Source: a virus (Duplodnaviria; Caudoviricetes). From it: DNA of 32,456 nt. Shown here piece by piece: positions 8,578-31,517 of the stretch. A program made the translations under genes and the position numbers. The notes under the pieces were generated by a model, which worked only from the letters and a program-made list of their open reading frames with translations, searched no databases and was not told the DNA's origin. Where the stretch lies: positions 1-32,456 of IMG/VR virus record IMGVR_UViG_3300006639_000017; one strand, written 5' to 3'. Position 1 is the stretch's first letter. Each line of letters opens with the position of its first letter.

Positions 8578-8770
8578 GCTGCACCCGACCAAGATCCTGA
8601 TCCTTCGCTTCCTTGAAAAGAACGGACCACAAACCATTCGACAAGTAAGCGAAGAGATCGGGGTGGGTTACACACATACAGGCACCTTGTTGAGGCGGCT
8701 ATACGATATGGGCCTGCTTACTGAAAGTTTCGCAGCAAACAAATCTTATTGGAGGATACGCAGCAGATGA
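8558..8770 (+). CDS. Winged HTH DNA-binding protein
   Basis: ILRFLEKNGPQTIRQVSEEIGVGYTHTGTLLRRLYDMGLL. Confidence 0.72.
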   Translation: MSQPPSRLHPTKILILRFLEKNGPQTIRQVSEEIGVGYTHTGTLLRRLYDMGLLTESFAANKSYWRIRSR

Positions 8771-8970
8771 CTAAAGAAGACATCATCCGCATGGCGCGGG
8801 AGCAAGGACTTCCAGAGACTGAAGTCGAAGGTGTGTTCAGGGTTAATTCTGACGACCTTGGCCGATTGCTTGCTGCCGAGCGTGAGGCGTGTGCGAAGGT
8901 GTGTGATGGATGGCCCGACTACGATGTGCAGGGATTAGCTGAAGCAATCCGCGCAAGGGGGGAGGAATGA
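8767..8970 (+). CDS. Conserved small phage protein
   Basis: MTKEDIIRMARE...AAEREACAKVC...AEAIRARG pattern; GGAGG SD. Confidence 0.75.
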   Translation: MTKEDIIRMAREQGLPETEVEGVFRVNSDDLGRLLAAEREACAKVCDGWPDYDVQGLAEAIRARGEE

Positions 8971-9161
8971 CTAATAATAGAAAGATGAGATGGAATAGAG
9001 AAGACGAACATCCACCGGTACATACTATCCCCGCAGATAAACAGCATGAACCCGCACCACCACAAGTAGTTATCCACGCCAAAAACTGTTGGTCATGGGG
9101 GCCAGCTCATTACGAGTGTGCGTGTAATGAAATATCTAAACTTAGAGGATGGAAGAAATGA
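8967..9161 (+). CDS. Hypothetical protein
   Basis: 64 aa, GGAGG SD, H..NCWSWGPAHYECA motif. Confidence 0.6.
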   Translation: MTNNRKMRWNREDEHPPVHTIPADKQHEPAPPQVVIHAKNCWSWGPAHYECACNEISKLRGWKK

Positions 9162-9757
9162 CAATGCAAACTGCTGTAATTAGTGTCAAGGGTATCGCTC
9201 CCTTGTTAACAAACAATCCCCAAACTGTAGACCGTTTCAATCATTACGCCCGAAAGATGAAGGCGATCAATGACAAAAAGACTCGGCGCACAGACGATGA
9301 CTATCTTGAACTGCGCCAGCTTGAAATGGCGGCTAAGGTTTATTTTGACGACAGTCTCGGTGCATACGTTCCTTCTACATGGATGAGTGAGGGACTAGCG
9401 GGTTCCGCTTTTGCAACAGTCAAACTATCGCGGGACAAACTGCGGGGTGGACTATTCGTGACGGAATCGAAACTGAAACTAAACTACAAGGACTCCGACA
9501 AAGTTAGAGAGTCTTCTGATCTAGTTGGTAATCCCACGTTCCGCCACACTATTGCGCTACCGCAGGGGCAAGTCCGTGTGGTCAAAGTGTTCCCGATCTT
9601 CCATGAATGGTCGTTTAGCGCAAATGTCGAGTATGACGATGCGATCATGGACTTCGGAATGCTAGATCGTATTGCTAAATACGCTGGGAAATACGTTGGG
9701 TTTGGTGATCTTCGTCCGACATTTGGCCGCGCACTTGTGGAGGTAAAAAGTGAGTAA
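9158..9757 (+). CDS. Stand-alone RAMP / Cas7-like RNA-binding protein, putative effector of the adjacent pentamer-repeat array
   Basis: N-terminal strand ISVKGIAPLL, YVPS motif, PIFHEWSF strand, and C-terminal glycine-rich loop AGKYVGFGDLRPTFGRALV, the arrangement typical of RAMP RRM folds; start 9158 by ATGA coupling (alternatives 9149, 9164). Confidence 0.75.
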   Translation: MTMQTAVISVKGIAPLLTNNPQTVDRFNHYARKMKAINDKKTRRTDDDYLELRQLEMAAKVYFDDSLGAYVPSTWMSEGLAGSAFATVKLSRDKLRGGLFVTESKLKLNYKDSDKVRESSDLVGNPTFRHTIALPQGQVRVVKVFPIFHEWSFSANVEYDDAIMDFGMLDRIAKYAGKYVGFGDLRPTFGRALVEVKSE

Positions 9758-10187
9758 CGTATATCGTGACTTATTTGATGAGTTATTCGATTCTCGATTG
9801 CTTGAGTATGGGTCTATCATCTTGAGGGAAGATATTCATAAACTTTTAGATATTAAAGTGCCCGATGTTGGAACTAAAGCTGAGTTTGATCGGATTACTT
9901 TGATCGAATTATCTGCGATTGGTTATGTTCGCGGAGAGCTACTTAAGATGGGGCGTTACTTAGCTGGTACGCCCTCCGGTTATCGTGTTCTTTTGCCGAG
10001 TGAGAACGCTAAACAAGTTGAGCTTTACATAAACGCTGCATCTAAAAAATTGAAGCGGGCACAAACTCTAAGTAGTAACACACCTAAAGAGTACAAAGCC
10101 GACTTGGACCGTTCGGAAGCTCGGTCCGTGATGATGCAAGATGGAATGCGTTCAAGGTTTTCTTTCGCTGGGATTAATGTGCAGTGA
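9750..10187 (+). CDS. Hypothetical accessory protein between the RAMP gene and the array
   Basis: 145 aa, GGAGG SD, overlaps RAMP stop by 8 bp, shares AT-rich composition; C-terminal helical region. Confidence 0.75.
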   Translation: MSNVYRDLFDELFDSRLLEYGSIILREDIHKLLDIKVPDVGTKAEFDRITLIELSAIGYVRGELLKMGRYLAGTPSGYRVLLPSENAKQVELYINAASKKLKRAQTLSSNTPKEYKADLDRSEARSVMMQDGMRSRFSFAGINVQ

Positions 10188-10243
10188 TGGGTACTGCGGG
10201 GCGAAGAAGAGTACCGTAAAGTAGGGCATTACAGGGAATCGCA

Positions 10244-10304
10244 AAGCAACGCGGGGAGTTGGTCGGCAACGGCCGGTTCTCCGAGTCGTTTTGACTCAGA
10301 AGCA
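10244..10304 (+). repeat. Array structured repeat 1
   Basis: AAGCAACGC + 13-bp stem with GCAA tetraloop (10253-10282) + GAGTC-gtttt-GACTC + AGAAGCA. Confidence 0.85.
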
Positions 10305-10370
10305 AAGTAGTGTAGGGCAACAAATAGAACCGCTCGGCGGCGTATTGAACGTCACCGCACCGTATTGAAG

Positions 10371-10430
10371 AGTAACGCGGTCAGTTCATTTAGGTGAATT
10401 GATCGAGTCACTTTCAGGGACTCAGAAGCA
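10371..10430 (+). repeat. Array structured repeat 2
   Basis: AGTAACGC + GGTCAGTTCAT-ttag-GTGAATTGATC stem + GAGTC-actttcagg-GACTC + AGAAGCA. Confidence 0.85.
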
Positions 10431-10480
10431 GAGCAAGACAAGGAAACGTATTGTAAGTTAGTGCAAGGTACGGTACCGAA

Positions 10481-10538
10481 AAGCAACGCGGTCAGTTCAT
10501 CTAGGTGAATTGATCGAGTCGTTTTTGACTCAAACGCA
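10481..10538 (+). repeat. Array structured repeat 3
   Basis: AAGCAACGC + GGTCAGTTCAT-ctag-GTGAATTGATC + GAGTC-gttttt-GACTC + AAACGCA. Confidence 0.85.
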
Positions 10539-10608
10539 ACGGACTGTAGAGCAGTTTGTAGCAACACAAAGCACCACAAATCAATGTACGGCAAAGAAAC
10601 GTATGGTA

Positions 10609-10656
10609 AAGCAACGCGGGGAGTTGGTTGATAACAGCCGAGCCTGCAAGGTAGGC
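10609..10656 (+). repeat. Array terminal (divergent) repeat 4
   Basis: AAGCAACGCGGGGAGTTGGT shared with repeat 1; stem TTGGTTG-ataa-CAGCCGA, then GCCTGC-aag-GTAGGC. Confidence 0.75.
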
Positions 10657-10703
10657 GACGCGAGTAAAGGGGTTGTGTTTAAGGATTACGAGGTGGTTGC
10701 AGC

Positions 10704-10895
10704 ATGAAAGACACTAAAGCCCGAAGGACTTGCAAAAAGTGTAACAGCACATATGGCGCTTCAGCGTTTGCTACCCGCACGGGATTCATTTGCAAATGGT
10801 GTAAAGGAGGGGGACAAATTGTCCCTACCCCAAAGCAATTATCCCCGCAGCATAAACTTACTAAACTCCCTAAACTCCCTACACATGCCCAATAA
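10704..10895 (+). CDS. Small Zn-finger-like protein
   Basis: CKKC...CKWC; GAGG SD. Confidence 0.6.
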   Translation: MKDTKARRTCKKCNSTYGASAFATRTGFICKWCKGGGQIVPTPKQLSPQHKLTKLPKLPTHAQ

Positions 10896-11244
10896 GATAA
10901 AAGTTAACGCGATGTCGTTCGCGTTGTTACTCAAAGAAATGCTTCCCGGCGAATACACATGCGAGGAGTTGGCAGAACGGACAGGGTTGCACTACGTCAC
11001 AGTCCTGCGGTACACACGGGAGATGCACAGGGCGGGGTCCGCTTATATCCGTGCGTGGAGAATGAACCACCGCAAGCAGTACGTTCTTAAAGTCTACGGG
11101 ATCGGAGATCGAGAGGATGTGGATAAACCCCGCACTGCGATGACCCCAGCGCAGCGTCAACTGAAGTACAGAGCCAAACTTAGAAGGAGAGAAGAGTATG
11201 CAAAGCAACATCAACGACAGAATCAACCCCCAGCATTACCGTAA
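10885..11244 (+). CDS. HTH DNA-binding protein
   Basis: TCEELAERTGLHYVTVLRYTREMHRAG HTH; start uncertain (10885 or 10912). Confidence 0.7.
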   Translation: MPNKIKVNAMSFALLLKEMLPGEYTCEELAERTGLHYVTVLRYTREMHRAGSAYIRAWRMNHRKQYVLKVYGIGDREDVDKPRTAMTPAQRQLKYRAKLRRREEYAKQHQRQNQPPALP

Positions 11245-21813: not shown

Positions 21814-22077
21814 GATGGTCTTAACCATCGAGGCAGGGATCTCAGTGACATGGGCATGCGCCCCGTCCGTCAGCGTTGTTACTAGCTGAACCCACTCATC
21901 ATCTTGATGGACAAGGAACCCAATACTTGCACATAGGTGCAGCCCCTTCTTTTTAGGCGGGGCGGGCTTGTCTCCATCTTGCCAGTGCGAAGTTGTACTA
22001 AACGCGGCGTCCACCCAAGTAACGATTACCATCGGGATGTCTTTGCTTTTTCGCTTGGTAACCATAGTCAGGCTCAT
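21775..22077 (-). CDS. Conserved hypothetical phage protein
   Basis: VIVTWVDA...C.SIGFLV...IPASMV; ATGA coupling to the large virion gene. Confidence 0.75.
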   Translation of the reverse strand: MSLTMVTKRKSKDIPMVIVTWVDAAFSTTSHWQDGDKPAPPKKKGLHLCASIGFLVHQDDEWVQLVTTLTDGAHAHVTEIPASMVKTISLLKSSGLFEAS

Positions 22078-25000
22078 TGCGCCGCAAAACGAGATTCTAC
22101 TTGCCGGTTTACTGCCACAGTTTGACGGGCCAGTGCAAGTTCTATCTGCCGCAACCGGTCAAGCGTCTCGCGTTTCTGCTCCGAACTCATGTTAGGCGCT
22201 GCGCGGACGGCGGCTTCGGCAGCGTTAATTTCCCCAATATTCTGGCGCAGGCTCCCCGCCATGGACGCTATTGCAATTTGCCCAACGTACTGCGTCAGGA
22301 AAGCGCGCGCTCTGGCGGGATCAGCTTCTGCCAGCGCTTTGAACGTAGCCATCGCTTGCTCGTTAGCCTTAGCTTCTTGGAACGCTAGCTGCAAAATGCC
22401 GCCTGCGTCTTTAGGCTGGAACAGCCCGCCGATGATCGGGTAGTCGCTAACACGCGCAGTCGGCTGCGGCACCGCTGTGCCACCAAAAACAAAGTCAGGC
22501 AAGCGCAGCAAGCTGATGCCCAACGTAGCGAAGTAGCCATTGACGAGGTGGTCAACCTGTTTGGGCGACACGCCAACCGTCTCACCAAGGAACTTGGCAA
22601 GGCTAGAAGTTCTTTCATCAAACTGCATCTCGGGGGTCATACGCGCTAGCTTGTCGCTGACAATCGGCTGGCCCGTAAAGATGCTCTTGTTGAGCGCCAC
22701 CTCAAGCGCTGGCTTGATAGCCTGCGGCAAGTAATAAGACGACAGCCCCGGCACCGAGTTAGCGGCAAGGCTCTTCAAACCAGCAACAGCTTGCTTGGAC
22801 TTGGGGTCGTCCTTAGACATATGGTACAGAGCTTCGGGCAGCGCCTTGAACGCGAACCCGATTTCAAACGGGATCGGCACGCGAAGCGGCTCGGCAATAC
22901 CCGGCAGACGGACGAACCAATTACCGTAGCGCTGTTGCGGGGTGGCGTTCTCGTACGCCTCATCGTCGCCCATCATCCCGGCGTAGGCTATCGTCATGCC
23001 AGCCATAACAAACCCGCGCGTAATCAGCTTTTGCTTGACGCGCAGCTTCTCCTGCATAGTGGCTTTGCCAGTCAGCGCCTTGTACAGAACATCAAGGCCG
23101 ACGATCTGTGCGTTGAAGAACGGGATCAGCGTGTTCAGCATGTACATGCTGGGCGATACGCCGCGCTTGCTAAAGTTCATCGACTCAAGCGTAGCAAGGG
23201 TAGCCTCGCGCTCACTCAGACCTTGTTTCAGGAACGAGTTGTACATATTGACGCGGGTCGCCGCGTCGCCAGCCATAGCAACTGAATCCAGCTTCGCCAT
23301 GGCGTAGGACCAGCCCTTCTTGCCGCTGGCAATCTGCTGCATGATCTTCTGCATATCGTCTGGCATGCCAGAGATAACCTGCCCGCCGATCACACCGCGA
23401 CTCTGAAGGACGTTTGCGCTGGTGCTCTTTCCGCTGGCGATCTTGCTCATCTCGCCAAGCGCAGACACAACAGGCTTATAGTCAGCGCCAGAAGTAAACA
23501 ACCCGGTCAGTGAATCGCGTACAACCTGCCGCACCGCATAGCGCGGGTCGCGCGTCACGAACTTGCGCAGAATGTTAGACGGGATGCCAAGCAGCCTGAG
23601 TCCGGCAGGGAACGTAGTGACAATACCTTCCATCCCCTTAACAACAAGCTCGGGCGGGATGTCACCAAACAGTTCTTCCATGGCGGCGGTATCGACGCGC
23701 CACGATTGTTCTTCGCCGTCAACCTTGGCGCTGATGATGTCTTTGCCTTTTACGCCGGAACCGACCCGCACAGCGATACCAAGGTCTTTAAGCGTGAACG
23801 CCACATTGCGCGTGGCAAGGTTGCGCAACGACAGATCCGTCAGCATCGCCGTGTTCTGCAAAGACGATGTGAAGAAGTCGAGCACAGCCTCATCGCCACC
23901 CACAAGGCTTTGAAGATCAGGCTGCTCTTTGATGCTGCCAATCCGAATCGGCGTCTCACCGCCAATGTACAACCCAACGATGCCGTCTTTGCCGACACGG
24001 TAGTAAGGAACGTAGTCGCCCTTCGTGTACGCCGCAGCCACCTGCTTGCTGATAGCGCCGGTCTGAACAGCAAAGTCAATCAGTCCGTTATTGTACTCAC
24101 GGTAAATACCGCGCGCGGTCTGGAACGCTTCGTTGCCACGCCCAAACTCAAGCGCGGCCTTAAGCTCGGTTGGATCGAAGTCTTTGCTGTAGTTCAGCTT
24201 GTCGATCCCAACGCCGTCCTTACCCAGCGCACGCTCAGCCAACAGGTATTTGGTAAACAGAATGTTTGTAGCTTCTGGGTTTCCTACCTTGGCCTTGCTC
24301 AACGCTTCGGACACTTGCTTCAGACTAGCGCCGCGCTTGGACTCAACTATGACTTCGCCTTTGTCGTTCTTGACAAGTTGCAGCGTGCCATTGGTAGCCG
24401 ACTCAGCAACAAAGCTGTTGCGCTGATCGTGCATGCGGATGAAAAACGTCAGGTCCATCGCCTTGACGGGATCAAGTAGTCCTTCTGCAAGCCCGCGTCG
24501 AGCAATCTCTTCATGTACAGCAGCACGGTCAATGAACTGCGTACGGAACTCAAGACCGCGCACATTAGCTTTTACTCGCTCCCAGCCACGTTTCTTTTGG
24601 CTGACCAGCGTGCTGTCTTTAGCCGTCAGAATAGCCGGTACGTCACTGGCGTAGCGCGCACCTTGTCCAAGCCGGAAAGAAATAGCGCCATCGCTGTCAC
24701 GTGCTGCTAGCGGCTTACCCTCATTAAAGTTAGCGCGGGACTGGCGCATCAGGTAGTACAGGTCCGATGTCGTCATCTTAGACGCATCGACCAGCCCCAT
24801 CTTCTTAAGCGCAACGCGCAACGCGCCGACCATCTCCTTAATGAACGTTCCAGCCTTTTGCATCAGGCCAGCGTCTACACGAGCTTCCTCAGTGTAGGCA
24901 ACGATCTCTTTAAGAAGCTGCAAATCACCAGCGCGTTTGTCAGTTTGGCTAATGCCCGCCTGCGGGATGCCAAGCTTCTCAGCCATGTTGCGAACGTCAG

Positions 25001-28000
25001 GGATCTTGTCGAGAAGAGCGTTCATGCCCTTCTCACCAACAAAACCTTCAAAGCCAACGTGACCGACAAGCTCGTGGGTGATGGTCTTTTCAAGGTCAAC
25101 CATATCCGTATGGTTTTCCCCAACAACAAACACCGTTCCGTCAGGCAGAACACCCCCGCGTACGGTGTCGATGTCCACACCCTGCGCTTCGATCCCGTCC
25201 AGTATGGCCTTGGGCAGCGCTGCCTTAGTTGCAAAGTATTGGAACTTAACGCCTTCCGGAGCTTTCAGCTTATCGGCGCGAGCTTGTGCATCAGCGAGGT
25301 TAATGCCGCCGCCTTTCTCACCGACGCGGAACTCAATCGGATTGCTGAAATCAATATCGCCTTCAACGTCGAATTCGGCTTTGTCGATACGCGCCGCTTC
25401 GTTCTCTTCCCGGCGTGCGTTTTGCACAGCGGCGATAGCTTTTGCTGACCCACGAAGTGCTTTAGCCTTTGTTGTGCGCTCTGCTGCTTCTTTCTTTTCT
25501 GGAGAAGTCGCGGCGCGTAGCGCGGGTGGTGTGCTTCCCTTCGACTCATAGCCTTGCATCGCCATACGCGAAACACGGCGGTCAACGTCCGACACGCGTT
25601 TGCCGGGGGTACCGGGCAAAACAACACGCTCACGAGCTTCTTCAACAAGCCGCTTTTTCTTTTCGGCAGGCGTTTCAAAGTAGTCTGAAACTTTTGAAGA
25701 AGTAACGCTAGGCCGGTCAATAACTTTCTTGCGCTGATAAAGCGTGTCGTAAGCGCCGTCTATGTCGAGAACGCCCTGTCCTGCTTTAGCGGTTTCCGAA
25801 GCTTTGTCAGTAGGAAGGATTACCTCGTTAACAACAATCGTCTGGCGCACAACGGGTACGCCAATCTTCTGCGCATCAAAAATTGCCTGCTGCTCTTTAA
25901 GGTTGGCTTCGTTAATGCTGCGCTCTTGGTTGCTACTGAGCTTTTGCAAATCGGCAATAAGCTGCGCCTTGGCTGCGGCAGCTTGTTTTGCAGCCCGTTC
26001 AGCCAGCCTAGTATCTACATCAACTGCGTTGAGCTTTGTGATTAAGTCGTCTTGCGCAACCGACAAAGCCTCTAAGCCCTGCGTTGCTTTGATAAGCGGG
26101 CGCATTACCGCCGCTTTGTGCATCTCGTACGACTGCATTACGCCGTCAGTAAAATTCTCAAGGCGCGTGCGCCCCTGCGTAACGTACTGTTGAAACGCGT
26201 TGAACTCATCAAGCGAAACGATGTTTGTAGAGATAGCCTCGTCTATTCTTGACGGCAGCGCTGCCTGAAGCGTAAGGAAGTCGTCCGCAATAGCCTTGCT
26301 CATGCGGTCAACAGCAACAGCACGGTCAGTCAACAGCTTCGACACCGACTTCATTCTGGCGCGCAAAGCATTTTGTTGGGATGAGCGCCGTCCTTGCGCT
26401 TGCTCTTCAGTTTCCTGAAGCTCCGCAGGGAACTGCTCTTTTACGGCTTGTACAATTTTGCCTTCGCTTTCAACCAACGCATTCGTCGTTCGTTCTACTT
26501 CTCTGTAGTGATCGACAAGCCGCTGCCGGTTGTACGCAAAGTTCGCAAAGTACACCTGCATATCAGCGTTAAACTGGCGCGCATCAAAAGCAGCAACAGT
26601 CACGCGCAGCTTGTTGGCTAGTGCCTCTGCTTGAGGAAGGCTGTTCAACTGCTGAATCAGCTTATTGCGCTTAGTTCTGTTTGCCGCCGAAAGCGGTTTA
26701 GTACGTGCGGCTTCGCGCTTGCTAACTGTCTCTTCAATCCTCTTTGCAAGCTCAAGCAAATTTTTGTACTTGTAACCAGCAATAACCGTTTTTGGAATCG
26801 CGAGGTCTTCAAGCGGCGTTTGTTTTTTGTGCGCAGCGCGCAGCTTAGCCGCTACCGAAAGCAAAAACTTATCTGCGTCGAACTCGCTCTTTAGCTCCGC
26901 CAGCCTGCCCTGCAACTTAACCGCGCGGGTATAGAGAGAATCTCTAGCAGCAGCAAGTTGTTCATTTGCTGATTTCCTAAACTCGGCGTCCATGTTTTTA
27001 GCGCCGGTCTTAAGCTCTTCTAACTGTTCGGTAAGGATGTTGAGCTTAGTAGCGTTAGCGTCGATCAAACGCTGCAACCGCCGCTTAAGTGTCTCCGCAC
27101 GCTTTTCTGCTTTAGTCTGAATAACCGTTGGGCGCAAGACTGTCTTTGGCCCGATGTCGCTATCGCTAGGAGCTTGCTCAAGGCGCACGTTGCTGGTACT
27201 GGGCGTTGTGTAGGAAAACTTCAACGCTTCCTGAGCTTTGGCGCTTGCGTCTGCAAGCTGATTAGCATACGTAAGCTGCGCAACGTAAGGCGTGTTCTCG
27301 CTGGAGACAAGAGCATTATTAAGCGCGATCTTGACGTTAAGCTCGTTTATTTTTCCTTCGACGCTAGCAATCCTGTTAAGGATAGCCTCACGTTTATTCT
27401 TGTAACCCTGCGTCGCCGCTTCTTCAGCACCTAAATCCTCAAGCATCTGCTTAGCGGACTCAACGTCGCCCGGAAGTTCAAAATTCCAGTCGCTGTTAAT
27501 AGCTTTAAGTAGCTTAGCCCTGTCGCTTTCTTGTTTGCTGTTTAGCGTGTCGAGAGACTGCTGATGCACTTCCTGCTCGCGCTTGAGCACCTCGATTTCT
27601 TTTTCAAACTTCTCGTTTTCCTTGATTAAGGGAGCCGCTTCTTTCTTCACGCGGTCCCGCTCAACGTCAAGCTGCTCCTTAGTGCTAGGAATAAGCTCAG
27701 AGAACATATCGCGCGTAGCGGTATCAGGCTCTTTGCCAGCCTCGGCTTCCTGCTTTTCTTGCTCTTCAGCCGCGCGCCTACGCTCTTCCATGCGCGCAAC
27801 CTCTGCCTTGGTCTGGCCTTTAAGCTCAAACTCAGGTTCAACGCGCTGGAACCGCTGCTTATATTCCTCGTTGGCAGCAGCAATCCTCTCTGCTACAGAC
27901 GGGCCTGTAGTGGTCGCCACAGCCTGTGCTTTCTTAGGCAGTCTGAGGATCTTGCGCTCTTTACCGACAACGCCTTCAACGCCTTCCATTGCCTTCGTTT

Positions 28001-31000
28001 CGGCTTCGATTGTTGCTTTTTGCAACTGCTCGGCGTAGACAGCAATTTGTTTAGCGTAAGGGCGGTACTCTTCAAAAGCCTTCTCCAGCGCGGCATCACG
28101 CTGCGTGTCACCACGAAACTTGGACGTAAGCTTTTTGTTTTTTGTCTCAACCAAAGAACGGATTCGGTCGCCGAGCGGTCCTTTGGCGTTGAACAAACTC
28201 TCAATAAACGCCGCCTGCATAGAAGAATCCAGATCGGCAAAGCGAACTGCTGGATCTTCCATTTCTGTTTGCAGCGCAAGATCGCCTTTGCCGGTCCTTG
28301 CCAGCGGACGCTCAGAAAGCGGACGGTCTTCTTTTAGGTCGCCTTTGTTGTATATGGTGGACGGCGTAGCTACAGCGCGTGTGGTCAACTCGTCAATGAC
28401 ACGAATGACCGGACGCAGGACTGCGTACTTAGACGCTGCTGGGAGAGGCTTACCGCCTTCTTGTACTCGCTGAAGGCTAAGCTCGCGGTACAACGTGTCG
28501 ATGTAATCTTTGCCAAGCTTCTTGAGCAGATCCGATTTCTCTTTAAGCTCTCTGCGCCTAGCGTTGTTGATATCGGTGCGCCGCTTTTTCTCGGCAGCAC
28601 TCATTGTTTTGCTAATAGGCAACCGACGGAACAAGTCGCTAGTACGCACTTCCCACGCAGCGCGAACAATGTCGTCAAAAATTTGCTCACGCTTTAGGTA
28701 CAGGTCGTTCTCTGTACCTTTGTACTCCGCGCGCGTTTGTTCAGCCGGTTTAGCCTGCGCAGCTTCTGCTTTCTTCTTACCGGCGGTGGTGAACTTTTCA
28801 AGCTCAGGCTGGGCAAGCGCGTCTTGCAAGACGGCAATTCTGTCGTTTACGCTTTGAAGTCGCTGTTCGGCTACAGCGCGTTGCTCTGGGGAAAGCTTAA
28901 GCCCTTCCGCCTCTGTACGTTCTCCACGTGGGCGAAGCGCACTAATGGTAGACAGTGACTTCTCAAGCTCACGCCTTTCCTGCTCAAGCCCAGCGATCTT
29001 GCTTTCTGCCGCCTCAACACCAAGACCGGCAGTAATAGGACGGGCTTCCGGGTTTCTGTATTTAGCAAGGTTTTCGCGGGACAGGTTTTGCTGGGTACTG
29101 GCAACTTCAACGGCACTAGCCAACCGGTTAAGCGCGGCGGAGATCGCAGCTTGCTCACCAGTTTGTTGCTCGGGGGCGGGCGCAAGCAGCCCAGCAATCT
29201 TATCGACAGTAGTATCGACAGCCCGCGCGTCAGACACAGCCTTTTCAGACCGCATACGAAGATCGCGCAGCACGTTAAGCTGAGCGTTCTTCTCCATGAG
29301 CGCGCGCCCATAGTCGTTTAGATACCCGTTTTCGTCAGCGACATCTTTTGCGTTCTTAGCCGCTTTATCCAGTTCGGTTTGTAGCTGCTCAATTCTGGAG
29401 GTTGCTTTCTCAAGCAAGCGCCTAGCTGCCTCCGGGTCATTGAGGTCAGAGTCCACACCGCGCAGATTAAGACCAAGCTTGGACGAGAGATCGCTCGAAA
29501 CTACGTTACGGTCAAGGTTTTCCTTAACCTGCTGACGATATGCTTCAGCCTTATCGCGCTCTTCTTTCTCCAACCTGCGGGCTTCGGCCAGTGCCGCGCC
29601 TTTATCTTCTTGCGCTTTAGCACGGGCAACGGCAAGCCGTTCGTTAATCCGCGCTTCCGGATCGGGCAAAAGAAGTTTGAGCGGATTATCCAGCGCTGCC
29701 TCAACCACATCCGCAGAACGCGACGCAGCCGCAAACTGATCGCGCTGTTGCTTACGCTGCTCGGCCTCTTGGAACAAACGCTCTTGATCGCGCTGTTTAC
29801 GCGCAAACTCATCCGAAAGAGTTAGCTGTTCTTGCTGAGCGTTGCTTACGCCAGTAGACGCAGCTTGCGCTTCGCGCAGTGCATTTTCTACCGTACTTAA
29901 AGAAGCGCCCGGCTTGGTAGCCCGCGCAAGTGCGGATTGAAGATTGCCAGCGGCAGTAGCTCCGCGATCCAACGGGATAGCTTCGCCAAACAAACCCATG
30001 GTCTGCCCTGCGGGTACAACTTCTTCTTCAGCAAACAAGCTGCCTTGGGGAGCAGCGCCCATCTGAGAACCAATACGCTCAGCGTCCGCAAGCGCACTTT
30101 CCATTTGCTGCTGGCGGCGAATGTTTTGCTGCAAAAGCTCCAGTTTCTGCGCTTCCGGCAAATTCTGTCGGCCAATAGCTACTCGCTGCTGCTTAAGCGT
30201 TTCGATCTCGTTCATCAAAACCCGGCGTTCGCGGTCTATAGCAGCGAAGTCTTGCGGAGCCTGAGCGCCTTCCGGACGAGCCGCAGCCTGTGCTTCGCCT
30301 TGTCTAACAATGTCTTGCAGACGAGCAACTTCATCCCAGTTACCGTCGCGCTGTGCTTGAACCATTGCAGAACGCGCAGCGTTAATCTGCTGCGGGCTAA
30401 CCTGTAGCGCGCTAGCAGCGCCAAACATATCCGGCTGAGCGGACGCCCTGCCCATCGGAGACTCAATCGGCATGAACTTAGCCGCAGCCTCCATGCCTGC
30501 TGCTCGCTCTTCTGCGGCATCTTTTTCTTGTTGAACTAGCTTAGCCTGCGCCCGCTCAGCGGTGCGCTGTTCGATCTGTTTTTGCTCGACTTGTTCTTGC
30601 GCACCACTTCTTTGAGAGTAGCGACCAGCGGCACCAAGCGGGGCAAGAAGCGACGCACCATACGCATTCTCAGCGTACTCTTTCATGGCGTCGTCAGTAG
30701 TAAGCGGCAACCCGGCTTGCAGCCGCTCAATCATTGCCTGCCCGACTTCAGTCGGAACTTCAGCAAGTACGCTAGTCCCAGCGCCCTTAGCCAACGTGGT
30801 GCGCAGCCGCTCTTCAGCCAGCTTGACGACCTGTGCTTCGCTGCGTCTGACCAGTTGCTGTTCGGGGACGCCAAGAATCTTAGCGATCATCCCACGCCCA
30901 AGCGGGATAGCCTGCGCAGCTACATCAAGCGCAGCCGCAGGAGCGGCAGCAGCAAACGCCTTACCGGCAGAAACATCGACAGGAGCGCCACGTTCCTGCT

Positions 31001-31517
31001 GCTCTCGGGCTTGTCGTTCTGCAAACGTACCACCCATTTCGAGCATGGACGGCGCAAACGCACCAAGCGCACCGCCAACCACCGCGCCTGCCGGTCCAAA
31101 CGGAGAACCAGCCATAGCGCCAAGTCGAGCGCCAGCGGCGGTAGCACCAATACGAGGAAGCTGTTCAGCAATAGCAAGCGGGATTTGTCGCCCAACTTCC
31201 CCGGCAGCGCCAAGCACGCCTCGTTGTTCATAAGCCTGCTTAAGCAGGTCAAGACCAGTCTGATTAGCGAAACGCTGGTTAATGTCTTTCTGTCGTTCCA
31301 ACCCAGCAAGCGCGGCTTGATTGGCATCCGTAAACAACCCAAACCCGGTACGCGTACCGGAGGCAAGCTGCTCGATGCCTTTACCTGCCGCAGCTAAATA
31401 CCCAGTCTTGGGTTTGTTTTGAAGAGCGTAAGCCTGCGCCCATTGCCACGCCGTACGTGAATCCGGCGCTTCTACTTCGTAAGTCTTACCGCCAAAATCA
31501 ACGTCGTACTTAGGCAT
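22074..31517 (-). CDS. Giant internal virion/ejection polyvalent protein with HExxxH peptidase-like segment and C-terminal LPD38-like domain
   Basis: 3147 aa; Gly/Ala-rich hydrophobic N-terminus, long coiled coils, THELVGHVG (~25059-25076), C-terminal NWFVRLPG..LRVPIPFEIG..FKALPE..KPALEVALNKSIFTGQPIV..SPKQVDHLVNGYF. Confidence 0.85.
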   Translation of the reverse strand: MPKYDVDFGGKTYEVEAPDSRTAWQWAQAYALQNKPKTGYLAAAGKGIEQLASGTRTGFGLFTDANQAALAGLERQKDINQRFANQTGLDLLKQAYEQRGVLGAAGEVGRQIPLAIAEQLPRIGATAAGARLGAMAGSPFGPAGAVVGGALGAFAPSMLEMGGTFAERQAREQQERGAPVDVSAGKAFAAAAPAAALDVAAQAIPLGRGMIAKILGVPEQQLVRRSEAQVVKLAEERLRTTLAKGAGTSVLAEVPTEVGQAMIERLQAGLPLTTDDAMKEYAENAYGASLLAPLGAAGRYSQRSGAQEQVEQKQIEQRTAERAQAKLVQQEKDAAEERAAGMEAAAKFMPIESPMGRASAQPDMFGAASALQVSPQQINAARSAMVQAQRDGNWDEVARLQDIVRQGEAQAAARPEGAQAPQDFAAIDRERRVLMNEIETLKQQRVAIGRQNLPEAQKLELLQQNIRRQQQMESALADAERIGSQMGAAPQGSLFAEEEVVPAGQTMGLFGEAIPLDRGATAAGNLQSALARATKPGASLSTVENALREAQAASTGVSNAQQEQLTLSDEFARKQRDQERLFQEAEQRKQQRDQFAAASRSADVVEAALDNPLKLLLPDPEARINERLAVARAKAQEDKGAALAEARRLEKEERDKAEAYRQQVKENLDRNVVSSDLSSKLGLNLRGVDSDLNDPEAARRLLEKATSRIEQLQTELDKAAKNAKDVADENGYLNDYGRALMEKNAQLNVLRDLRMRSEKAVSDARAVDTTVDKIAGLLAPAPEQQTGEQAAISAALNRLASAVEVASTQQNLSRENLAKYRNPEARPITAGLGVEAAESKIAGLEQERRELEKSLSTISALRPRGERTEAEGLKLSPEQRAVAEQRLQSVNDRIAVLQDALAQPELEKFTTAGKKKAEAAQAKPAEQTRAEYKGTENDLYLKREQIFDDIVRAAWEVRTSDLFRRLPISKTMSAAEKKRRTDINNARRRELKEKSDLLKKLGKDYIDTLYRELSLQRVQEGGKPLPAASKYAVLRPVIRVIDELTTRAVATPSTIYNKGDLKEDRPLSERPLARTGKGDLALQTEMEDPAVRFADLDSSMQAAFIESLFNAKGPLGDRIRSLVETKNKKLTSKFRGDTQRDAALEKAFEEYRPYAKQIAVYAEQLQKATIEAETKAMEGVEGVVGKERKILRLPKKAQAVATTTGPSVAERIAAANEEYKQRFQRVEPEFELKGQTKAEVARMEERRRAAEEQEKQEAEAGKEPDTATRDMFSELIPSTKEQLDVERDRVKKEAAPLIKENEKFEKEIEVLKREQEVHQQSLDTLNSKQESDRAKLLKAINSDWNFELPGDVESAKQMLEDLGAEEAATQGYKNKREAILNRIASVEGKINELNVKIALNNALVSSENTPYVAQLTYANQLADASAKAQEALKFSYTTPSTSNVRLEQAPSDSDIGPKTVLRPTVIQTKAEKRAETLKRRLQRLIDANATKLNILTEQLEELKTGAKNMDAEFRKSANEQLAAARDSLYTRAVKLQGRLAELKSEFDADKFLLSVAAKLRAAHKKQTPLEDLAIPKTVIAGYKYKNLLELAKRIEETVSKREAARTKPLSAANRTKRNKLIQQLNSLPQAEALANKLRVTVAAFDARQFNADMQVYFANFAYNRQRLVDHYREVERTTNALVESEGKIVQAVKEQFPAELQETEEQAQGRRSSQQNALRARMKSVSKLLTDRAVAVDRMSKAIADDFLTLQAALPSRIDEAISTNIVSLDEFNAFQQYVTQGRTRLENFTDGVMQSYEMHKAAVMRPLIKATQGLEALSVAQDDLITKLNAVDVDTRLAERAAKQAAAAKAQLIADLQKLSSNQERSINEANLKEQQAIFDAQKIGVPVVRQTIVVNEVILPTDKASETAKAGQGVLDIDGAYDTLYQRKKVIDRPSVTSSKVSDYFETPAEKKKRLVEEARERVVLPGTPGKRVSDVDRRVSRMAMQGYESKGSTPPALRAATSPEKKEAAERTTKAKALRGSAKAIAAVQNARREENEAARIDKAEFDVEGDIDFSNPIEFRVGEKGGGINLADAQARADKLKAPEGVKFQYFATKAALPKAILDGIEAQGVDIDTVRGGVLPDGTVFVVGENHTDMVDLEKTITHELVGHVGFEGFVGEKGMNALLDKIPDVRNMAEKLGIPQAGISQTDKRAGDLQLLKEIVAYTEEARVDAGLMQKAGTFIKEMVGALRVALKKMGLVDASKMTTSDLYYLMRQSRANFNEGKPLAARDSDGAISFRLGQGARYASDVPAILTAKDSTLVSQKKRGWERVKANVRGLEFRTQFIDRAAVHEEIARRGLAEGLLDPVKAMDLTFFIRMHDQRNSFVAESATNGTLQLVKNDKGEVIVESKRGASLKQVSEALSKAKVGNPEATNILFTKYLLAERALGKDGVGIDKLNYSKDFDPTELKAALEFGRGNEAFQTARGIYREYNNGLIDFAVQTGAISKQVAAAYTKGDYVPYYRVGKDGIVGLYIGGETPIRIGSIKEQPDLQSLVGGDEAVLDFFTSSLQNTAMLTDLSLRNLATRNVAFTLKDLGIAVRVGSGVKGKDIISAKVDGEEQSWRVDTAAMEELFGDIPPELVVKGMEGIVTTFPAGLRLLGIPSNILRKFVTRDPRYAVRQVVRDSLTGLFTSGADYKPVVSALGEMSKIASGKSTSANVLQSRGVIGGQVISGMPDDMQKIMQQIASGKKGWSYAMAKLDSVAMAGDAATRVNMYNSFLKQGLSEREATLATLESMNFSKRGVSPSMYMLNTLIPFFNAQIVGLDVLYKALTGKATMQEKLRVKQKLITRGFVMAGMTIAYAGMMGDDEAYENATPQQRYGNWFVRLPGIAEPLRVPIPFEIGFAFKALPEALYHMSKDDPKSKQAVAGLKSLAANSVPGLSSYYLPQAIKPALEVALNKSIFTGQPIVSDKLARMTPEMQFDERTSSLAKFLGETVGVSPKQVDHLVNGYFATLGISLLRLPDFVFGGTAVPQPTARVSDYPIIGGLFQPKDAGGILQLAFQEAKANEQAMATFKALAEADPARARAFLTQYVGQIAIASMAGSLRQNIGEINAAEAAVRAAPNMSSEQKRETLDRLRQIELALARQTVAVNRQVESRFAAQ

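What the first reader, a model, noticed from the sequence alone, without database searches (positions are those of the whole stretch)
10244..10656. Array repeats conserve structure, not sequence: double hairpins with G-U pairs and covariation
Hairpin 1 has two unrelated sequence versions at the same position. Repeats 1 and 4 use GGGGAGTTGGTYG; repeat 1 forms a 13-bp stem with 5 G-U pairs and a GCAA GNRA loop. Repeats 2 and 3 use GGTCAGTTCAT/GTGAATTGATC, 11 bp with 3 G-U pairs. Repeat 1 versus 4 shows a compensatory C-G to U-A change (TGGTCG/CGGCCG vs TGGTTG/CAGCCG). Hairpin 2 is GAGTC/GACTC with variable loops in repeats 1-3 and is replaced by GCCTGC/GTAGGC in the last unit. The G-U pairs work only on the + strand, which supports a + strand RNA co-oriented with the RAMP gene. 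Inference: these are processing or capping handles that release ~110-130-nt guides (unit spacing 126, 111, 128 bp).
Basis: partly seen in the sequence, partly recalled or inferred. Interest (0 to 1): 0.75.

Follow-up and report, generated by a model that had tools for sequence, protein, structure and literature searches.

The report
Double-hairpin boundaries of GCA-code VIPR guides
The hairpins are real, evolutionarily conserved RNA structures that sit between four guide-like repeats beside a phage VIPR gene; they likely mark where a long transcript is cut into guide RNAs predicted to silence rival mobile elements, using a repeat code (GCA/GYA) different from the published GGY one.

Summary
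This is a phage VIPR locus. ORF 9149-9757 matches SUSP1 Vipr (E 1e-15) and ORF 9750-10187 is a Vap1 homologue. The 'spacers' are period-5 GYA/NN tracts of 13, 15, 12 and 16 units, each followed by a double hairpin. In 95 selected homologous tails, 89.8% of cells pair (shuffled 61.7%) and 13 of 14 pairs show two-sided changes. The + strand folds better in 141 of 148 tails. Two corrections: the two hairpin-1 versions share GG..AGTT; and the last 'GCCTGC/GTAGGC' hairpin is phage backbone beyond the cassette edge at 10641, since a relative lacks 9126-10640. Not named in the texts searched: a GCA/GYA-scaffold clade whose Vipr has lost the G2-reading arginine; hairpin 2 and the junction G kept mainly between units; the last guide base covarying with hairpin 2. 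In a cultured Azonexus prophage of this clade, both guides decode by the 1-nt-skip rule onto one co-resident satellite-like element. No target was found for the window's own guides, and no RNA ends could be measured. Verdict: new variant of a known kind.

The parts
9149..9757 (+). vipr gene (Cas7-like RAMP, about 199-202 aa; real start may be 9158 or 9164)
   Evidence: phmmer to SUSP1 Vipr PDB 36pp_D E 1.2e-15; BLASTP 27% identity, E 8e-22; same PHROG 4652 as SUSP1 Vipr
9750..10187 (+). vap1-like accessory gene (145 aa)
   Evidence: hhalign of 82 homologues to SUSP1 Vap1: probability 91%, E 1.1e-6; 34 of 82 hit SUSP1 Vap1's PHROG 5926; plain BLASTP found nothing
10186..10250 (+). guide tract 1: 13 GYA/NN pentamers, starting at the vap stop codon
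10251..10297 (+). tail 1: GC link, hairpin 1 (10253-10282, 13 bp), hairpin 2 (10283-10297)
10302..10376 (+). guide tract 2: 15 pentamers
10377..10423 (+). tail 2: hairpin 1 (10379-10404, 11 bp), hairpin 2 (10405-10423)
10428..10487 (+). guide tract 3: 12 pentamers
10488..10531 (+). tail 3: hairpin 1 (10490-10515, 11 bp), hairpin 2 (10516-10531)
10536..10615 (+). guide tract 4: 16 pentamers
10616..10641 (+). tail 4, truncated at the cassette edge: only the 7-bp upper stem of hairpin 1 remains
9126..10640 (+). whole VIPR cassette, absent in one piece from a related phage contig
   Evidence: joint 9125 to 10641 in run X5 (one contig, 39 letters on the short side, letters between not known); different flanks at 9146 and 10641 in run X3

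Best explanation
The double hairpins are conserved + strand RNA structures that separate four GYA/NN guide tracts in a phage vipr-vap1 locus; hairpin 1 likely caps the 3' end of each guide RNA, hairpin 2 with the invariant C-G junction likely marks where the precursor is cut and protects the next guide's 5' end, and Vipr is predicted to coat each tract and use the NN pairs with a one-base skip to bind and silence DNA of competing mobile elements. SHOWN: Vipr and Vap1 homology; the periodic tracts; covarying hairpins; + strand bias; in a clade member, both guides decode onto one co-resident satellite-like element. INFERRED: transcription and cutting, the cut position, the nuclease (probably a host RNase or trimming, since the locus encodes none), and silencing rather than cleavage (from SUSP1 experiments in print).
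For: Vipr and Vap1 homology. G-N-A/NN tracts with 62 nt of downstream sequence in 117 of 159 fetched loci, redundant records included; GCA is 70% of 3228 units in 262 guides. A double-hairpin template scores >=12 in 100 of 148 unique internal tails versus 21 of 740 shuffles; + strand is more stable in 141 of 148. On a sequence-only MAFFT alignment of 95 selected tails, 89.8% of cells pair versus 61.7% shuffled and 31-56% slid, with two-sided changes at 13 of 14 pairs; RNAalifold predicts the same two helices. Division of labour: terminal tails keep hairpin 1 (63 of 66) but keep hairpin 2 less often (40 of 63, versus 99 of 108 internal) and the junction G less often (39 of 63 versus 100 of 108, p 1e-6). 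In L157 a lone hairpin 2 sits between a TTGACA-17-TACACT promoter match and the first guide; in L001 and L002 a double hairpin lies between the vipr stop and the first downstream guide. Code: the Azonexus prophage (L164/G001; Vipr 55%, Vap 42% identical). Guide 1 matches 22 of 24 in its own host genome, expected about 4e-5 per genome. Guide 2 matches 19 of 22, 3.4 kb away, its only hit in that genome. Both sites lie in a ~10-kb element at tRNA-Met with integrase, replication initiator, DnaB-like helicase and HU. The skip falls on codon position 3, with one guide on each strand. Skip 0 and skip 2 for guide 1 gave no hit. The SUSP1 residue that reads G2 (R138) is R in 29 of 29 GGY-scaffold proteins and replaced in the GNA clade (commonest F 47, A 23, V 12 of 93; window F148), while the G1 reader D177 is kept in 91 of 93.
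Against: No RNA ends measured. No target found for the window's four guides. The natural-target evidence comes from one homologue with two guides, and guide 2's 19 of 22 match lies in an HU gene end, a conserved family. The 95 aligned tails were chosen partly for having hairpin 2, so hairpin-2 pairing is partly circular. A hairpin just before first guides was seen in only 52 of 98 (shuffles 32%), in a set contaminated by missed tracts, and the window's own first guide has none. SUSP1 K82, a non-target-strand clamp reported as essential, aligns to F in 79 of 93 clade members. The scaffold class changes only twice on the tree, so the residue-scaffold link is about two events, not 122 independent ones. 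The window's tracts are more degenerate than the clade's (42 of 56 G-N-A) and tail 4 is truncated, so this copy may be partly decayed.
Confidence: 0.7

Rival explanations
1. Both hairpins belong to the 3' tail of the upstream guide as one cap, like the SUSP1 pseudoknot. Mature ends arise by exonuclease trimming up to the Vipr footprint and the double stem, with the cut after hairpin 2 and no dedicated junction signal.
For: In SUSP1 the ~40-nt structured tail stays on the mature vrRNA and caps the filament. The two stems here abut with no linker and could stack coaxially. 40 of 63 terminal tails still keep hairpin 2.
Against: Hairpin 2 and the junction G are lost more often in terminal tails. 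A lone hairpin 2 follows a promoter match in L157, and double hairpins precede first guides in L001 and L002.
Confidence: 0.3
2. The tail is a two-state switch. The last guide dinucleotide and the linker C pair with the 5' arm of hairpin 2 (an extended hairpin 1) until Vipr loads, or after hairpin 2 is cut, so that protein loading is coupled to processing.
For: The last guide base and hairpin-2 base 3 pair in 86 of 95 tails (C-G 54, A-U 28, U-A 4). They go the same way in 5.5 of 6 independent pairs on the Vipr tree (p 0.03-0.06) and swap within single arrays in L033 and L137. The two folds are within 2 kcal/mol in 28 of 80 tails.
Against: The double hairpin is better by more than 2 kcal/mol in 50 of 80 tails, and by 2.1-3.3 in the window. 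The neighbouring pair holds in only 60 of 95. The second independent-pairs test had 4 pairs, p 0.25. A base triple would give the same signal, and tails move between phages as alleles.
Confidence: 0.25
3. The hairpins are leaky intrinsic terminators or pause sites that make a ladder of 3' ends without nuclease cutting.
For: Tails 1 and 3 score as terminator-like. In run X3 the last tail ends in hairpin 1 plus a U-tract.
Against: The U-run is tied up as the loop of a covarying hairpin 2. Runs of 5 or more U occur in 9 of 108 internal tails and 1 of 63 terminal tails. No sigma-70-like promoter match lies in 8900-10900, so internal guides would have no 5' ends.
Confidence: 0.08
4. The inverted repeats act as DNA, as recombination or guide-swapping sites, and not as RNA.
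For: Near-identical tails recur across phages (for example the repeat 2/3 hairpin in L003), and the cassette is mobile.
Against: 372 of 2439 predicted pairs are G-U and the + strand folds better in 141 of 148 tails. G-C to G-U exchanges are common (36 one-sided changes at one pair).
Confidence: 0.04

Closest known systems
Type II VIPR of Escherichia phage SUSP1 and the Pseudomonas fulva prophage (bioRxiv 10.64898/2026.04.26.720920; structures 10.64898/2026.04.26.720927)
   Same: vipr plus vap1 gene pair; array of four ~100-nt units, each a pentamer tract followed by a structured tail; phage-borne; 1-nt-skip code on codon position 3 and targets on either strand (found here in a clade member).
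   Different: Scaffold GCA/GYA, not GGY. Tail is two abutting hairpins, not a pseudoknot. R138 is lost, H17 becomes N, M72 becomes W and K82 aligns to F. Vipr is only 27% identical.
SUSP1 VIPR versus F5 satellites (bioRxiv 10.64898/2026.10.15.759431)
   Same: A phage VIPR aimed at an integrated satellite-like element. In Azonexus G001 both guides hit a ~10-kb tRNA-integrated element with no capsid gene among the ORFs scanned.
   Different: The predicted sites are a small ORF upstream of the replication genes and the end of an HU gene, not the recombinase. The VIPR carrier is a temperate prophage in the same chromosome.
Non-canonical VIPR scaffolds (YNNNG, NNNGG, NNNNG in 10.64898/2026.04.26.720920; GAC, CAC, WGT, TGH in 10.64898/2026.10.21.760802)
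   Same: Period-5 fixed-trinucleotide/NN arrays beside Vipr-like proteins. GYA/NN read in another register (YANNG) fits the published YNNNG class.
   Different: GCA/GYA is not named in the texts searched, and no double-hairpin tail, target or residue correlate is described there. Their logos and tables (Fig. S17, S10, data S4) could not be seen and may include this clade.
CRISPR type I/III repeats cut by Cas6 (recalled, no call)
   Same: Structured repeats between guides beside a RAMP gene; the last repeat is degenerate.
   Different: No cas1, cas6 or contiguous spacers; repeat sequence is not conserved; targeting information is gapped.

Membership tests
VIPR | Vipr (RAMP with G-loop and thumb) gene | tested here: met
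   PDB 36pp_D E 1.2e-15; PHROG 4652 shared; G-loop D and R kept in 91 of 93. The structure prediction did not finish.
VIPR | Tandem pentamers with a fixed trinucleotide and variable NN (GGY or a related consensus) | tested here: met
   GYA/NN, 42 of 56 units G-N-A in the window; GCA 70% of 3228 units in the clade. Related consensuses are allowed by the paper.
VIPR | Canonical GGY scaffold | tested here: not met
   No GGY period-5 tract in the array: best whole-window score 4 of 10, elsewhere. This makes it a non-canonical variant.
VIPR | Conserved structured 3' tail after each tract | tested here: met
   a double hairpin rather than a pseudoknot
VIPR | Targets by the 1-nt-skip rule | tested here: inconclusive
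   Met for both guides of homologue L164; no target found for the window's guides.
VIPR | Discrete ~100-nt RNAs bound by Vipr; DNA binding and repression | not testable with these tools
   needs small-RNA sequencing, pull-down and reporter assays
VIPR type II | vap1 accessory gene and tail-punctuated array | tested here: met
   hhalign 91%, E 1.1e-6 to SUSP1 Vap1; 34 of 82 hit PHROG 5926
VIPR type II | Placement in the published type II Vipr clade | not testable with these tools
   The authors' tree and data S4 are not held.
CRISPR-Cas | Sequence-conserved repeats, contiguous spacers, cas1/cas6 and other cas genes | tested here: not met
   No Pfam cas family among the 19 ORFs scanned; no Rfam match at E<=1; spacers are periodic.

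The most novel reading that the evidence does not exclude
A large, unnamed GCA-code VIPR lineage in which protein and RNA co-evolved (loss of the G2-reading arginine, a remodelled third-base pocket) and whose double-hairpin boundary is a Vipr-gated RNA switch: the last guide base pairs into hairpin 2 and so couples filament loading to release of each guide. It would supply both the missing processing mechanism for VIPR arrays and a VIPR orthogonal to the GGY type, testable in a cultured Azonexus strain that carries both the prophage and its predicted satellite target.
Probability: 0.2. Interest if true: 0.75.

Novelty: new variant of a known kind. Interest (0 to 1): 0.52.

Why it matters
The VIPR texts I read show mature guide RNAs but, apart from ribozyme-interspersed arrays, do not say how tail-punctuated arrays are cut. 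This clade gives about 150 natural tail variants with heavy covariation and a clear internal-versus-terminal contrast, which narrows the cut to a testable junction. The GCA scaffold with matching Vipr substitutions predicts an orthogonal programmable repressor and tests the published structural code. The Azonexus isolate offers a natural prophage-versus-satellite pair in one chromosome. The system itself was described in 2026, so this extends a known kind rather than opening a new one.

Tried and rejected
Target searches for the window's guides by the 1-nt-skip rule. Guide 2 in viral contigs: 1 exact 9-pair hit that does not extend, chance; 26 exact 8-pair hits, best 8 of 14 at the remaining positions. 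Guide 3: 0. Guide 2 with mismatches: 0 of 44 related records and 0 of 301 genomes of G001's order. Guide 1 was not searched in any collection. Local search of 262 clade guides in 660 kb of fetched loci: skip 1 no better than skip 0 or 2 (69, 64, 62 at >=80%); skip 3 only self-matches. The G077 hit (3 mismatches, in a pentapeptide-repeat gene) was taken as chance; the G141 hit (2 mismatches) was not followed up. Idea that window L188 explains its high GTA use: rejected, the other 4 L-bearing proteins have GTA fractions of 0-0.06. My early note that R138 is kept was an alignment slip, corrected. 'Hairpin before every first guide': inconclusive. No RNA holder listed. One 155-nt contig from a run guessed to be RNA covers 10448-10600 only and is not used as evidence. 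Rfam: nothing. The single-protein search of viral contigs found nothing; the alignment query did. The AlphaFold job never finished, so no fold search was run.

Full report
SETTING. The window is a whole 32.5-kb virus record with a family A polymerase, an SNF2 helicase and a PD-(D/E)XK nuclease. The array follows two genes. ORF 9149-9757 has one match among solved structures, SUSP1 Vipr (E 1.2e-15; 27% identity; PHROG 4652); 499 proteins match it at E<=0.001. ORF 9750-10187 has no Pfam, PHROG or BLASTP match itself. A profile of 82 homologues aligns to SUSP1 Vap1 at 91% probability, E 1.1e-6, and 34 of the 82 hit Vap1's PHROG.

THE OBSERVATION. The stems, G-U counts, GNRA loop, C-G/U-A change and spacings are as described. 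Shuffle z-scores are -3.0, -3.0, -2.1 and -1.4, and the + strand folds better in all four repeats. Two claims fail. The two hairpin-1 versions share GG..AGTT. The last 'replacement hairpin' lies outside the cassette: one contig in run X5 joins 9125 to 10641, one in X11 starts matching at 10641 with other DNA upstream, and in X3 the cassette runs on past 10641 to complete the 13-bp stem and a U-tract. Tail 4 was therefore most likely clipped when the cassette was inserted or exchanged (inference). The 40 best positions of a whole-window scan all fall in 10181-10586. Each tract precedes its hairpins.

HOMOLOGUES. Alignment-based scans gave 77 viral and 80 metagenome loci (each kept only its best 80, the sets overlap, and L124 is the window itself), plus 2 cultured phages. 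In 117 of these 159 loci, 339 G-N-A tracts had 62 nt of downstream sequence, giving 148 unique internal tails. Distant Vipr relatives carry GGY tracts instead. A double-hairpin template scores >=12 in 100 of 148 tails versus 21 of 740 dinucleotide shuffles; 139 of 148 have z<-2; the + strand is more stable in 141 of 148; 372 of 2439 pairs are G-U. For covariation I kept the 108 tails with a one-base link. 98 of them could be anchored by hairpin 2 alone, and there hairpin 1 paired in 541 of 686 cells versus 233-339 when slid. I gave 95 of the 98 to MAFFT (dropped L022:2278, L038:2310, L038:3620; three rows are the window's own). On that alignment 89.8% of cells pair (shuffled 61.7%, slid 31-56%), and 13 of 14 pairs change on both sides. 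RNAalifold predicts the same two helices, leaving a variable internal loop at pairs 4-5. Hairpin-2 counts there are partly circular. Anchored by hairpin 1 only, hairpin 2 is present in 99 of 108 internal tails. Only the link C, the first G and the junction C are near-invariant inside the tail.

WHICH HAIRPIN DOES WHAT (inferred). Terminal tails keep hairpin 1 (63 of 66), but keep hairpin 2 in only 40 of 63 and the junction G in 39 of 63, against 100 of 108 internal (p 1e-6). The terminal class includes missed internal units, and its window row is mis-anchored. In L157 a lone hairpin 2 lies between a promoter match and the first guide. In L001 and L002 a double hairpin lies between the vipr stop and the first downstream guide. 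This fits hairpin 1 as the 3' cap, and hairpin 2 plus the junction as the boundary signal or 5' guard of the next guide. The general test was inconclusive (52 of 98 versus 32% shuffled), and the window's first guide has no such hairpin. Separately, the last guide base pairs with hairpin-2 base 3 in 86 of 95 tails with three pair types, in 5.5 of 6 independent pairs on the protein tree, and within two single arrays. The extended fold is within 2 kcal/mol in 28 of 80 tails but worse by more than 2 in 50. It may be a switch, a post-cut fold or a base triple.

THE CODE. NN usage over 2704 positions correlates with antisense codon positions 1-2 (r 0.63, p 0.008; sense r 0.26; other frames -0.20 to 0.36), and guides lean both ways (94 strongly antisense, 45 strongly sense, of 262). 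A genome scan gave 16 loci, one in the complete chromosome of Azonexus sp. IMCC34839. It lies in a prophage with integrase, terminase, portal and capsid genes and has the same gene pair, scaffold and tail. With a one-base skip, guide 1 hits 2 of 251 family genomes. The better hit (22 of 24) is in its own host, 2.6 Mb from the prophage; the reversed control hit none; the expected count is about 4e-5 per genome. Skip 0 and skip 2 gave none; skip 3 was not run there. Guide 2 has no hit in G001 at <=2 mismatches and one at 3 mismatches, 3.4 kb from the first site (about 1e-5 expected in 10 kb). Both sites lie in a low-GC element of about 10 kb at tRNA-Met with integrase, replication initiator, DnaB-like helicase and HU; no capsid gene was found among the 23-29 ORFs scanned. 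The skipped base is codon position 3 in both (a small unannotated ORF and the HU gene), and the guides face opposite strands, which points to a DNA target. For the window's own guides 2-4 no target was found, guide 1 was searched only locally, and the host is unknown.

PROTEIN. The structure preprint names R138 and W178 for G2, H17 and D177 for G1, and a narrow pocket for the third base. Among 122 proteins with a called scaffold, R138 is R in 29 of 29 GGY proteins and replaced in the GNA clade (commonest F 47, A 23, V 12 of 93). H17 is N in 84 of 93, M72 is W in 92 of 93, and D177 and R179 are kept in 91 of 93. This fits a scaffold that keeps G1 and changes positions 2 and 3, but the class changes only twice on the tree. 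K82 aligns to F in 79 of 93, which is unexplained. No structural model was obtained.

LITERATURE. 10.64898/2026.04.26.720920: whole text with methods and legends read, supplement PDF searched by terms only, figures and data tables not seen. 10.64898/2026.04.26.720927: parts 1-2 of 6 and passages. 10.64898/2026.10.15.759431: parts 1-2 of 8 and passages. 10.64898/2026.10.21.760802: passages only. Searches listed no other VIPR paper. 'GCA' has no occurrence in three of the main texts or in the one supplement searched; I did not search the structure preprint for it. The discovery paper does list YNNNG repeats, which GYA/NN fits, and homologues exist in GenBank phages, so the clade may sit in unseen figures or tables. 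That the cassette needs a host nuclease rests on the absence of a nuclease gene in it; the RNase III/E candidates are recalled knowledge. Earlier scan notes on other genomes reached similar VIPR-tail readings; they are leads only.

VERDICT. A real, covarying RNA boundary element of a type II-like VIPR with a non-canonical scaffold. Probability that it is a VIPR array: about 0.95. Probability that the clade uses the 1-nt-skip code: about 0.85. Probability that hairpin 1 is the 3' cap with a cut at or near the junction: about 0.6. New variant of a known kind; interest 0.52.

Noticed in passing
window 9126-10640: The VIPR cassette is present or absent as one block among close relatives (joint 9125 to 10641 in X5; different flanks in X3 and X11); the flanking region 8750-8970 is highly mosaic.
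   Followed up: partly
window 10210, 10212: Strain in run X3 differs in guide 1 at one NN base and one scaffold middle base (GTA to GCA).
   Followed up: no
window 10645-10670: Backbone just past the cassette has a weak period-5 A pattern (GCA, GTA, CGA, CGA, AAA) that could be chance or a decayed tract.
   Followed up: no
window 10186-10615: GTA is as frequent as GCA (17 each) in this array, versus 5% and 70% in the clade; the highest GTA share among loci scored.
   Followed up: partly
G001:C1:3001400-3011500 (L182, L183): Satellite-like element at tRNA-Met carrying its own HU gene, integrase, replication initiator and DnaB-like helicase; predicted target of both prophage guides.
   Followed up: yes
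L019:2242-2286, L041:3104-3148, L052:4184-4233: GGY-scoring tracts in GCA-clade loci. In L019 and L041 they overlap GCA tracts shifted by one base; in L052 it follows the last tail and may be a foreign or orphan guide.
   Followed up: no
L049:2189-3201: A second, distant Vipr (32% identity) with a G-N-A-scoring (GGA-like) scaffold and a different tail, probably a separate scaffold variant.
   Followed up: no
L045, L046, L055, L058, L061: Very long tracts (23-59 pentamers) without internal tails.
   Followed up: no
L001, L002 (Vibrio phage 1.266.O, Listonella phage phiHSIC): Cultured marine phages with GCA-type arrays; in phiHSIC the array is annotated as hypothetical ORF21 on the opposite strand.
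   Followed up: partly
window 22074-31517 (-): 3147-aa protein with only a C-terminal PHROG 9854 match of unknown function.
   Followed up: no
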